Source of the DNA: Heptranchias perlo
Lineage: Eukaryota
Assembly: GCF_035084215.1 (NCBI RefSeq)
Contig: NC_090350.1
Coordinates: 37,386,001 to 37,450,000, forward strand
Direction of reading: 5' to 3'
DNA: 64,000 nt
The position numbers and the translations under genes are program-made. The notes below the pieces were generated by a model. That model saw only the letters and a program-made list of their open reading frames with translations, searched no databases and had not been told where the DNA came from. Shown piece after piece: positions 41,201 through 44,200 of the stretch (position 1 is the first letter of the stretch; the number at the start of each line of letters is the position of its first letter).

Positions 41201-44200
41201 CCACCCTGTGTCTAATGTTCATAACTGCAGCTTCCTTTGGCAATATTTACTTGCAGCAGAGAAATTGGAAGGAAACAGGTATTTTTTTAAAATCAGGGAA
41301 AATAAAACTGCATGCAAGAAGAAACAAAACCAGCACAGGAAAGGGTACAGAAATGAGGAAATAAAACAGAGGGGCAAGAAAATCCAATGAAACAAACTAA
41401 AAATGAAACATGGGGGAAGGTGGTAGATGAGGGGGAAATTTAAAGTTCGTTCTAGCACGGTCACATTTTAAAACATTTGCTGCAAATCTCTGGACCAGTA
41501 ACATTTTGCTGTGAGGGCCAGTGGATACTGAACCTGGACCAGTAATCGTGAAAAGAACATCTGGACACTTAGTGAATATCAATGCCAAACTGTTCTTCAT
41601 TAGCGTCTTCAACAAAGATGCTGCTTGTGAAAGGGAAACACTACAACCTCACTGTACTCGTCCTCTAACTGGTGTCTGCTCAGCAAGAGGGTCAGACTAT
41701 GGGATTGATTGTTGTACAAAAGCTAACTGAGTGCCACAATCAATCACAGGTTGAACCCCTTTCATTGAGAACATGCGAATAGGCCAAAACATGAGGATAC
41801 ATGTTTTGCAACCAACTCATAAAAACAATGAAATAATCTGTTCACATTTACTCAAACCCAGCCATTGTCAAAACAAGGAAACTGCTTGGCCCATTGTTTT
41901 AACCTCACTATTAATTTTCACATCTAAGTAGTTACAACTTCAAGTCACAGGGATACTGGACATCCAGCCACTCATGAATCTCCCACAAGGCCTTCAGGTG
42001 GGGCACCCACTGGAAGTAAAGTTTCTCATTGGAGACATAAACTTACATTGTCTCGCCGAGGCAAATGCGCCCCCTGTCAGCAGAACATGGAACAGCACTG
42101 ATGATTGTAGTCGTGGAGAAGTCCTTGGCTCTGTCCACCCCATCCTCCTGGCTGAAGGAATATACCCGGAAAGGAGAGGCCTTGAGCAGGAAGAGGCATA
42201 TTCCCATGATGCACTGAGCCAAATAAGCATAATCAGTGCATTAATGAGACAGTTCCAGTAAAGATCCTTACAACGAACAGGAACTCTATTTGGCCAGCAC
42301 GGCAGATGTTAGGCCCATTGCTTTAGAATTAACTTTTCAATTTTTTTTTTTCCTTAAAAAATAATCTTAAGCAACTGCCAAGATAAGAATTTCAGGTTTG
42401 TAGCAGAACATTTTTCCATATATATTTTATTTCAAATTTCCAAACAACAATGTATTTTTACCCGAATAGTTTTATACATTATACTGTAACTGTCAAACAT
42501 AGTGGTACTGAGCCATTCAGACCAGGAAGGTCCCAGATTCAATCTCAGTCTGTCTTGAGTCAGCTAATCTGAGCCAGGGGTACAGTCAGGGTGCTTTTAA
42601 GTAGCCTCCCTAGTTAGAGAGGGGAAAAATCAGCCAAGGTTTTCCACTCCTAATCACTACCCAGTGCCTCTTGCTGGAAAGCGTGTGCGCAGACGACAGG
42701 ATTGTGCTCAGCTGGGGTGTCCCCACGATTGAACAGCCTGCCACCACTCATTGTCCAGGTTCACACATTATGAATACCTACTTGGGTGAGATACCATTGG
42801 GTGGCTGGTGCCCAAGGAACTGCAGTGCAGTCAGTGACTTCAGGAGAAATAGGAAAAAGGTTGGATAAAAAGGGGGAAAATAAATTGTCAAACGCAAAGG
42901 CACTTTTTATATATGAACATTAATTCTCATTTCACAATGGAAGTTCCGCCATCCTACACCAGAACAGTGTAGGTTGCACAATAGTCCTGTAATAAACTGT
43001 TCCACTACTGGTGCATACGAATGTTCATGAGCCACCAGTGGTGACATGAAATCAATATGATGAACAGAAACAGATTTTTACAACTCCATGCAAAATAATG
43101 GTTAACATCTCTGTTATATCGATTTTCTGTCAGTGGGTGCTTGAATATATTTCAGAAACAAACAGTGGCCCAGATTTTCCTGCAACGGCGAGATCAGTGG
43201 GGTACACCATGAATCTTGCTCATCTATTGCTTCAATTTCGCAGTTGATAACTTCCTCCATATTTTCATGCGTTTCTAATTAGAATACGTCGCAACGAGCA
43301 TAGCGGCAAACGAGAAGCGGTGCAGCCAATGGCCAATGTTTATCTCAACTTTTAGTACTTGCGAGTAATGACTAAACATTGGGACGTAATAGAGTACCTG
43401 GCTGTACACTGGGCACAAAGTTTCATGCTATGTGGTCTTATTGTGACAGGTTGGAATTGCTAATGAAAAGGACAAAAATATTTTTTTAAATTTTCTAACG
43501 TACCCACTCTGAGTCCCTTGCCAAAGACTGTTCTTTCCCCGAGTGCAGAGCAGTTCCAGCGGCCGTATCGGAACTGAAATTGATACTCGTTGATACCCAT
43601 ATGAACTCCTTCTCCAACGTCGGCAGTGGGGTGACTCTGAGAACTCGCCTGCTGACGAGGCACCAGCCCTGATATTTTGCTGCAGAAGGAGCTCAAATGG
43701 GAATCAACGAGTATCAATTTTAGTTCCGATACGGCCGCTGGAATTGCTCTCCACTAGAGCTAAGAGCTGTCTTTGGCAAGGAGCTCAGGGAGGGTACGTT
43801 AGAAAATAAAAATAAACTGTCCACTTCATTATCAACTTCAATTTGTCACAATAAGATCACCGCATAGCAGGAAACTTTGTGCGCTGCCTGCCCCAGTTTG
43901 AGCTATATTGTTGCCATAAAGATTTTCACCATGATGGTAATCCAATTGGGGTCGTTACTTTCCGATTTATAAGTAAATCTTTTGTTTGATTTGAAATAAA
44001 TGATAACAACACAAAGCAATTTATCACAGTTAAATATCGAATGGATGCTTTGAAATAAATCAGACTTTTTGTAAGTTACCGGGAGCTAAGCAAATTCCCC
44101 AACTGGGAAACATGAGGAACCTATCTAGGAGCAATAAATCATGCTGCTGCCAGGCCACCAAAGCCATTATTTTTAAATCAATGTGACTTTAATCCAGGAA

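What the first reader, a model, noticed from the sequence alone, without database searches (positions are those of the whole stretch)
43411..43884. Back-to-back inverted Wnt7 copies form a hairpin with about 200-bp arms in the TRNAU1AP pre-mRNA
Seen: 43411-43613 and 43684-43884 are diverged reverse complements (for example GGTACGTTAGAAAAT, TGTCACAATAAGA, CATAGCA.GAAACTTTGTGC, ATCAACGAGTATCAATTT.AGTTCCGATACGGCCGCTGGAA) around a loop of about 70 nt. Any TRNAU1AP transcript therefore contains both sense and antisense Wnt7 coding sequence. Inference: the fold-back could be an ADAR substrate, or a source of endo-siRNA/miRNA-like RNAs complementary to wnt7 mRNA, as described for pseudogene-derived inverted repeats.
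Basis: partly seen in the sequence, partly recalled or inferred. Interest (0 to 1): 0.7.

Follow-up and report, generated by a model that had tools for sequence, protein, structure and literature searches.

The report
Transposon-carried wnt7a fragment, folded back
A small DNA transposon in the last intron of a shark or ray housekeeping gene carries a broken piece of the wnt7a gene copied head-to-head, so the unspliced RNA can fold into a long hairpin, most likely a decaying leftover of DNA repair and not a regulator of Wnt7.

Summary
The inverted repeat is real: arms 43413-43616 and 43681-43882, 170 of 207 columns matching, RNA fold z -28. It is not two Wnt7 copies. It is one ~275-nt piece of a Wnt7 gene, most likely wnt7a (end of exon 2 plus ~90 nt of intron 2), whose last ~200 nt were duplicated in reverse. 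The 'loop' is single-copy exon sequence with inverted microhomology at its edge, the mark of a fold-back event. It is a Pack-TIR-like, probably Pangu/PHIS-type non-autonomous transposon in TRNAU1AP intron 8 of an elasmobranch. Only the pre-mRNA contains it. Both arms are pseudogenised, exon and intron parts diverged equally (15% vs 14%), and the arm that would give antisense RNA is not the better kept. ADAR editing is plausible but ordinary: a second long inverted pair lies in intron 2. siRNA control of wnt7a is untested and unlikely; one weak hint (arms less decayed than the loop, p 0.02, 0.10-0.17 without CpG changes) keeps it open.

The parts
43167..44416 (.). Non-autonomous terminal-inverted-repeat DNA transposon, 1,250 bp, PHIS (Pangu-like) end signature, carrying the Wnt7 piece
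   Evidence: TIR pair with perfect 3-bp target duplication; ends matched by up to 63 and 70 other contigs of X1 while the flanks are covered by one; contigs join left-end to right-end sequence without this interior
43164..43166 (+). Left target-site duplication AGT
43167..43180 (+). Left terminal inverted repeat, begins GG, 13 of 14 identical to the right one
44403..44416 (-). Right terminal inverted repeat
44417..44419 (+). Right target-site duplication AGT
43413..43503 (-). Left arm, outer part: first ~91 nt after the Wnt7 exon-2 donor (intron-2-derived by position), GT donor intact at 43503
   Evidence: wnt7a-type read-through V-G-T-L-E-N
43504..43616 (-). Left arm, inner part: 3' portion of Wnt7 exon 2, sense to TRNAU1AP; invariant Cys changed to Tyr
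43617..43680 (-). Spacer/loop: single-copy upstream part of Wnt7 exon 2, with a 2-codon deletion and many substitutions
43679..43686 (+). Fold-back junction: 8 nt that pair with 43611-43618 (6 of 8 Watson-Crick, the three 3'-terminal pairs perfect)
43681..43793 (+). Right arm, inner part: second copy of the 3' portion of Wnt7 exon 2, antisense to TRNAU1AP; stop codon at 43721; same Cys-to-Tyr change
43794..43882 (+). Right arm, outer part: intron-2-derived, ends at the same source position as the left arm
38233..46045 (-). TRNAU1AP last intron (intron 8), which hosts the element
   Evidence: tblastn of stingray TRNAU1AP P0121 gives 9 exons from 55989 to 38092
38092..55989 (-). TRNAU1AP coding span, 9 exons, 85-100% identical to P0121

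Best explanation
A non-autonomous PHIS-superfamily (Pangu-like) DNA transposon took up a ~275-nt fragment of wnt7a (exon 2 from about I-C-N-K to the donor, plus ~90 nt of intron 2) by templated repair inside the element. One strand of that fragment snapped back on itself through a short inverted microhomology that lies naturally in exon 2, about 65 nt apart, and was extended, copying ~200 nt in reverse and leaving a single-copy spacer. The element sits in TRNAU1AP intron 8 with its AGT target duplication intact and has decayed as non-coding DNA. TRNAU1AP pre-mRNA can fold into a ~200-bp imperfect duplex, likely an incidental ADAR substrate like other intronic inverted repeats, removed with the intron. 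Shown: inverted repeat, Wnt7 exon/intron anatomy, host intron, TIR and target duplication, repeated ends, pseudogenisation, junction microhomology. Inferred: wnt7a as the source (about 85%), Pangu-type assignment, order of capture, amplification and fold-back, editing, lack of function.
For: Carrier: TIR pair 13/14 with AGT on both sides, the only one of 4 motif pairs in the window with a perfect 3-bp duplication. In X1 the flanks are covered by single contigs, while 63 contigs differ at 43267 and 70 at 44309; coverage changes at the TIR boundaries; contigs in X1, X5 and X7 join left-end to right-end sequence skipping 834-1071 nt. ANT duplications and 11-40-bp TIRs starting AG/GG define Pangu (PMC4482050 passages). 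Fragment, not gene: exon 2 only, with its donor and intron, so DNA-mediated and not retroposed. Source: the copies have F and K at two diagnostic sites (10 of 10 named Wnt7a, 0 of 17 named Wnt7b) and read through the donor as T-L-E-N; T or M follows in 83 of 86 7a-type read-throughs and 0 of 63 7b-type. Fold-back: single-copy spacer, 6-of-8 pairing with three perfect terminal pairs, and both arms ending at the same source base. The geometry matches yeast 'distant inverted insertions' (two overlapping pieces of one locus, 30-119 bp between junctions, microhomology 2-11 bp; PMC11724301 section 19) and fold-back spacers (PMC3907307 passages). Decay: arm-to-arm divergence 17/113 in exon and 12/86 in intron, p 1.0; stop in one arm; a Cys kept in 120 of 120 proteins is lost in both; longest perfect run 22 bp is what chance gives (p 0.49).
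Against: The parent gene could not be aligned because no genome is held, so capture breakpoints and the 7a call rest on bony-vertebrate proteins; the copies also carry Y and R at two sites where 17 of 17 named Wnt7b and 0 of 10 named Wnt7a do. The arms are closer to intact Wnt7a than the loop is (13 changes in 170 sites vs 11 in 54, p 0.02), which equal neutral decay does not predict; the excess fades when 3-4 CpG-type changes are dropped (p 0.10-0.17). A 41-column block has one mismatch (p 0.10). Both arms share changes against other contigs (CGC vs CGG in 5 of 5 other contigs at 43559; an 11-nt indel against 1 contig), so either time passed between capture and fold-back or the arms were homogenised later; a single-step history is too simple. 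The Pangu label rests on one target site, with no transposase and no empty site.
Confidence: 0.8

Rival explanations
1. The hairpin has been co-opted: intronic or retained-intron RNA is cut by Dicer (or Drosha) into small RNAs antisense to wnt7a exon 2 that damp wnt7a in germline or embryo.
For: Very stable duplex. Arms are less decayed against Wnt7a than the loop (p 0.02). The best-kept block (41 columns, 1 mismatch) lies in exon sequence. Natural long hairpins give endo-siRNAs in mouse oocytes (cited in PMC6391682 passages; primary papers not read). wnt7a is expressed in shark fin ectoderm (10.64898/2026.02.08.704681 passages).
Against: The antisense-giving arm is not the better kept (9 vs 4 changes, p 0.25). 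Intron-derived and exon-derived stem diverge alike. No G-U bias toward the host strand (6 of 15, p 0.61). The loop excess weakens to p 0.10-0.17 without CpG-type changes. Long hairpins are inefficient RNAi triggers in mouse cell lines (PMC6391682 passages). No Rfam family matches at gathering score.
Confidence: 0.07
2. The hairpin is the standard cargo of a small multi-copy subfamily: the fold-back occurred once in a master element that then transposed, this being one of several hairpin copies, later homogenised arm to arm.
For: Five other X1 contigs lie on the minus arm at 43559 and two on the intron part of the plus arm. One 976-nt contig fits 43491-43640 without a gap across the site where intact Wnt7 has two more codons, which suggests a sibling sharing the deletion (inference, its letters are not shown).
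Against: Apart from the locus's own contigs, the longest listed X1 piece is 189 nt; none spans both arms (the table keeps the longest, but a filter drops records and hairpins fragment contigs). Both arms have CGC where 5 of 5 other contigs have CGG, which fits a locus-specific fold-back. Some of the five may be the real wnt7a/wnt7b genes or alleles.
Confidence: 0.2
3. The piece is a remnant of a third, whole-genome-duplication Wnt7 paralogue that once lay here, and the transposon ends are two chance insertions on either side.
For: The diagnostic residues mix 7a and 7b states and match none of 197 proteins exactly.
Against: Only part of exon 2 is present in 64 kb, inside an intron of an intact gene. 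The two ends share a TIR and one target duplication, and other contigs join the same two ends. Family sequence abuts the cargo on both sides.
Confidence: 0.03

Closest known systems
Pack-TIRs of animals (PMC8277862; passages and methods section 14 read)
   Same: Host DNA fragment of 100-5,000 bp between two ends of one TIR element; microhomology-based template switching; location inside a host gene.
   Different: Cargo here is an inverted duplication with a spacer. It is older and more diverged than their 90%-identity filter would probably allow. The term search found no 'shark' or 'Harbinger' in that paper's main text; its supplements were not examined. The parent copy could not be aligned here.
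Turmoil-1 of C. elegans, a Harbinger transposon with rsp-2 and cpg-3 fragments in its inverted repeats (PMC2572040, part 1 of 2 read)
   Same: Harbinger-like element carrying exon-plus-intron gene fragments of about 200 bp in inverted pairs, decayed, with splice-site remnants.
   Different: There the fragments are part of 760-bp terminal repeats of a 5-kb autonomous element. Here the TIRs are 14 bp and the inversion is internal, with a 64-nt single-copy spacer.
Pangu group of the PHIS superfamily (PMC4482050 passages)
   Same: ANT target duplication; short TIR beginning GG.
   Different: No transposase here to place on a tree; one target site only. Harbinger elements were reported undetected in elephant shark (PMC9179366 passages), so their status in cartilaginous fishes is open.
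Fold-back inverted duplications and 'distant inverted insertions' (PMC3907307 passages; PMC11724301 abstract and section 19)
   Same: Two overlapping pieces of one locus in opposite orientation, a single-copy spacer, and short inverted microhomology at the junction, inserted at a distant site.
   Different: Described in human rearrangements (spacers 0.8-70 kb) and yeast mutants; here a small germline-fixed relic inside a transposon.
Pseudogene-derived hairpin endo-siRNA loci (mouse oocytes as cited in PMC6391682; psiPPM1K, PMC3616710, search listing only)
   Same: Sense and antisense gene sequence in one transcript that can fold into a long duplex.
   Different: Here the duplex is intronic, nearly half of it has no counterpart in the mRNA, and no small RNA has been shown.

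Membership tests
Pack-TIR | Both ends of one TIR element flank the cargo, each with at least 10 bp of terminus | tested here: met
   14-bp TIRs, 13/14; ends recur in up to 63 and 70 contigs, and other contigs join the same two ends. No Repbase consensus was available.
Pack-TIR | Internal host-derived sequence of 100-5,000 bp | tested here: met
   ~470 nt of Wnt7 exon 2 plus intron
Pack-TIR | Unique parent locus at 90% identity or more, without flanking TE | not testable with these tools
   No genome held; the two longest other contigs on the arms are about 80-83% alike, so the 90% filter would probably fail through age
Pack-TIR | DNA-mediated capture, not a retrocopy | tested here: met
   Exon-2 donor and ~90 nt past it are kept in both arms
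PHIS superfamily, Pangu group | 3-bp ANT target-site duplication | tested here: met
   AGT on both sides; one site only, empty site not seen
PHIS superfamily, Pangu group | TIR of 11-40 bp starting AG or GG | tested here: met
   14 bp starting GG
PHIS superfamily, Pangu group | DDE transposase in the Pangu clade | not testable with these tools
   The only open frames of 70 codons or more inside the element lie on the Wnt7 cargo; the autonomous partner is not in hand
Fold-back inversion | Single-copy spacer between the inverted copies | tested here: met
   43617-43680 is unique exon-2 sequence
Fold-back inversion | Inverted microhomology at the spacer edge | tested here: met
   6 of 8 pairs, 3 perfect at the 3' end; no chance model was run
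Endo-siRNA hairpin locus | Long duplex within one transcript | tested here: met
   Predicted for pre-mRNA only; transcription of the hairpin itself not observed
Endo-siRNA hairpin locus | 21-23-nt Dicer products from both arms | not testable with these tools
   Only assembled contigs were offered
Endo-siRNA hairpin locus | Near-perfect complementarity to the parent mRNA | tested here: inconclusive
   Parent mRNA not available; the antisense arm has at least 9 changes in 108 nt, but 43685-43711 has no amino-acid change
ADAR-edited intronic inverted repeat | A-to-G changes in RNA against DNA of the same animal | not testable with these tools
   Needs raw RNA reads on the hairpin; none were offered
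Known microRNA or other Rfam family | Match to a covariance model at gathering score | tested here: not met
   0 matches in the 64-kb window against 4227 families

The most novel reading that the evidence does not exclude
A Pangu-like DNA transposon captured and inverted part of wnt7a, creating in one step a natural RNAi-style hairpin inside a housekeeping gene's intron, and the lineage has kept the arms closer to wnt7a than the loop because small RNAs from it tune wnt7a (a dorsal fin-patterning signal) in germline or embryo. This would be a transposon-built regulator of a developmental gene in a cartilaginous fish.
Probability: 0.06. Interest if true: 0.8.

Novelty: new member of a known kind. 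Interest (0 to 1): 0.3.

Why it matters
As it stands, it is a clear example of gene-fragment capture by a PHIS-type DNA transposon in an elasmobranch, with an unusually readable fold-back junction. No paper listed by my searches, judged by title and abstract start, covers such capture in sharks (open-access library only). It also warns annotators that Wnt7-like hits in such genomes can be transposon cargo. If small RNAs were found, it would show how transposons can make antisense regulators of developmental genes in vertebrates, and the test is direct: small-RNA and RNA reads on a 470-nt interval.

Tried and rejected
No whole genome was held, so the parent gene, sibling copies and empty sites could not be aligned. 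Sequencing runs: no RNA holder listed; three runs guessed to be RNA, all from the same single sample as the DNA runs. I laid 4 of the 7 listed runs (X1, X5, X6, X7). None of the three guessed-RNA runs had a contig on 43394-44073 at 80% likeness. That is no evidence on expression, editing or exon use: contigs drop rare and structured RNA, and no exon control was in the stretch. Their small word shares come from intron sequence at 42850-43128 (X5) and 42850-42971 (X6); their other pieces lie on repeat ends. Summed contig depth was not read as copy number; I used contig counts. Protein searches for sibling or orthologous pseudo-exons returned 197 Wnt7 proteins, all with the invariant Cys and none named from a cartilaginous fish (in one search only 120 of 192 hits were listed). 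A donor-spanning pattern found 0 matches in metagenome contigs. Rfam gave nothing. Earlier-findings look-ups by sequence and place were empty. One search printed no rows (faulty pattern) and was redone. Rejected: assembly artefact (contig with 0 differences, arms 15% diverged); processed pseudogene (intron kept); the arms being TIRs of a nested element (a CTG repeat appears only in one register with a terminal mismatch; read by eye); selection for pairing (no G-U bias, mismatch clustering p 0.10-0.49). Dating: about 0.08 substitutions per site per arm. I did not convert this to years because the only rate in hand is per generation in another shark (PMC10587355 abstract).

Full report
Observation. 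The inverted repeat is there. Arms 43413-43616 and 43681-43882 align with 170 matches, 29 mismatches and 8 gap columns. The minus-strand RNA folds at -282.9 kcal/mol against a shuffle mean of -132 (z -28, 0 of 100 shuffles as good), and 176 arm-to-arm pairs remain when 1.5 kb of context is included. A 992-nt contig of DNA run X1 spans 43166-44157 with no differences; X1 may be the source of this sequence, so this argues against misassembly but is not an independent sample.

Host. The closest protein to the last exon is stingray TRNAU1AP (P0121, 91%). It maps to nine minus-strand exons from 55989 to 38092, so the window is most likely from an elasmobranch. The hairpin is in the last intron (38233-46045). 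Only unspliced RNA contains it.

What the arms are. The minus copy matches Wnt-7a residues 34-104 (E 7.7e-23). Ten Wnt7 proteins find nothing else in the window at a meaningful score. The exon ends at 43504 in the minus copy and 43793 in the plus copy, each followed by an intact GT donor and about 90 nt more of shared sequence, which by position is intron 2. The minus reading frame runs on through the whole loop to about 43686. So there is one fragment of about 275 nt, of which the last 200 nt are present twice. Both copies are dead. A cysteine kept in 120 of 120 proteins is tyrosine in both arms, the plus arm has a stop at 43721, and the loop lacks two codons.

Which paralogue. At two sites that separate 10 of 10 named Wnt7a from 17 of 17 named Wnt7b, the copies have the 7a state. 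Proteins predicted from genomic contigs read through the donor: T or M follows V-G in 83 of 86 7a-type read-throughs and 0 of 63 7b-type (62 Q, 1 P). The copies read T-L-E-N, and three 7a-type proteins read M-L-E-N (197 proteins examined; 36 spliced and 9 otherwise-spliced rows are not read-throughs, 3 mixed rows read Q). Against this, the copies have Y and R at two sites where all named 7b and no named 7a do, though 9 unnamed 7a-type proteins have the R. No cartilaginous-fish Wnt7 was named among the hits. I put wnt7a at about 85%.

The carrier. The hairpin lies inside 43167-44416, bounded by 14-bp inverted repeats (13 of 14 identical, starting GG) with AGT on both sides. Of 4 such motif pairs in the window it alone has a perfect 3-bp duplication. 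Laying contigs at 80% likeness, the flanks are covered by single contigs, whereas 63 contigs differ at 43267 and 70 at 44309, and coverage changes at the bins holding the two termini. Contigs in X1, X5 and X7 join left-end to right-end sequence while skipping 834-1071 nt, so other family members have these ends around other interiors. One contig shows family sequence reaching in to 43906, so the cargo is about 43411-43885. ANT duplications and 11-40-bp TIRs starting AG or GG define the Pangu group of the PHIS superfamily (PMC4482050, passages). Without a transposase this is a signature match only.

Other copies. Five other X1 contigs lie on the minus arm at 43559 and two on the intron part of the plus arm. 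Some may be the real genes or alleles. One fits 43491-43640 without a gap across the two-codon deletion, which suggests a sibling copy (inference; letters not shown). No listed foreign piece spans both arms (longest 189 nt; 706 pieces not shown, longest kept). The two contigs on the plus arm carry the left-arm letter at 3 of 3 listed sites, and all five at 43559 differ from both arms. With the shared Cys loss and an 11-nt indel against one contig, this points to a delay between capture and inversion, or to later arm-to-arm conversion.

How the inversion formed. On the + strand, 43679-43686 can pair with 43611-43618 (6 of 8, the three 3'-terminal pairs perfect), extension from there copies the left arm, and homology stops at the same source base on both arms. 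A single-copy spacer with short inverted microhomology marks fold-back duplications (PMC3907307, passages). Yeast repair yields distant insertions of two overlapping inverted pieces of one locus, with 30-119 bp between junctions and 2-11 bp of microhomology (PMC11724301 section 19). This structure fits; the mechanism is inferred, and I ran no chance model for the microhomology.

Function. Arm-to-arm divergence is 17 of 113 in exon and 12 of 86 in intron (p 1.0). Six of 15 transitions leave a G-U pair in the host strand (p 0.61). The longest perfect run (22) is what chance gives (p 0.49). The antisense strand of the host RNA comes from the plus copy, which has at least 9 amino-acid-changing substitutions against 4 (p 0.25). 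An inverted pair in intron 2 folds with 277 pairs, so long intronic duplex is not special in this gene. Results against my reading: the loop is more decayed than the arms (11 of 54 vs 13 of 170 sites, p 0.02; p 0.10-0.17 after dropping 3-4 CpG-type changes); a 41-column block has one mismatch (p 0.10); CpG is better kept in the arms (o/e 0.66-0.68) than in the window (0.33), though the element's ends are also high (0.54-0.98). These used bony-vertebrate proteins as a stand-in for the parent. Editing and small RNAs could not be tested with contigs. ADAR action on such duplexes is general knowledge, not a result here. Long hairpins trigger RNAi poorly in mouse cell lines but do give endo-siRNAs in oocytes (PMC6391682, passages).

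Comparison and verdict. It works like an animal Pack-TIR (PMC8277862, passages and methods; supplements not examined, so its species list is unchecked). It meets the end, size and DNA-capture criteria; the parent-locus criterion is untestable here. Turmoil-1 is a precedent for inverted exon-intron fragments in a Harbinger element (PMC2572040, part 1 of 2). Searches listed nothing on this locus or on such capture in sharks, judged by title and abstract start in an open-access library. One earlier scan note on an intronic hairpin in a chimaera reached a similar ordinary verdict; I did not check it. Verdict: real, explained as transposon cargo with a fold-back inversion, a new member of a known kind. 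Interest 0.3, with about 6% for a co-opted small-RNA source.

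Noticed in passing
window 43504-43692 (minus): The minus copy is sense to TRNAU1AP and keeps its donor. The fold-back junction supplies AG acceptors after pyrimidine runs at 43680 and 43692, giving possible 176- or 188-nt cryptic exons with no internal stop that would shift the frame of the last exon; acceptors at 43771 and 43784 give exons with stops. The stem would hide the donor. No evidence of use.
   Followed up: partly
window 52248-52578 and 53180-53510: Inverted pair of a dispersed repeat (77.5% over 334 nt) in TRNAU1AP intron 2; folds with 277 arm-to-arm pairs. 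A natural control for editing.
   Followed up: partly
window 1138-1323: Small element of about 185 bp with terminal inverted repeats resembling the carrier's (13 of 14 between its ends); flanks read AAT and TAT in one register. Probably a related miniature element.
   Followed up: partly
window 33389-34581: Tandem array with a 51-bp period, over 20 copies, raising GC to about 0.5.
   Followed up: no
window 11011-12042 and 13917-14926: Inverted pair of retroelement-like fragments, 80% over about 1,070 nt, 1.9 kb apart; another potential long duplex. The retroelement label is my reading of the frames.
   Followed up: no
window about 7942-21664 (minus): Exon-like frames of a syntaxin gene; the last has a weak SNARE hit (E 0.0034, below cut-off). 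The name STX12 is recalled, not tested.
   Followed up: no
window 42850-43128: Intron-8 sequence is present without differences in contigs of two runs guessed to be RNA (X5 to 43128, X6 to 42971); pre-mRNA, a retained intron or DNA carry-over cannot be told apart.
   Followed up: no
window about 44690-44860: A further repeated sequence starts about 270 nt right of the element; contigs of all four laid runs pile on it.
   Followed up: no
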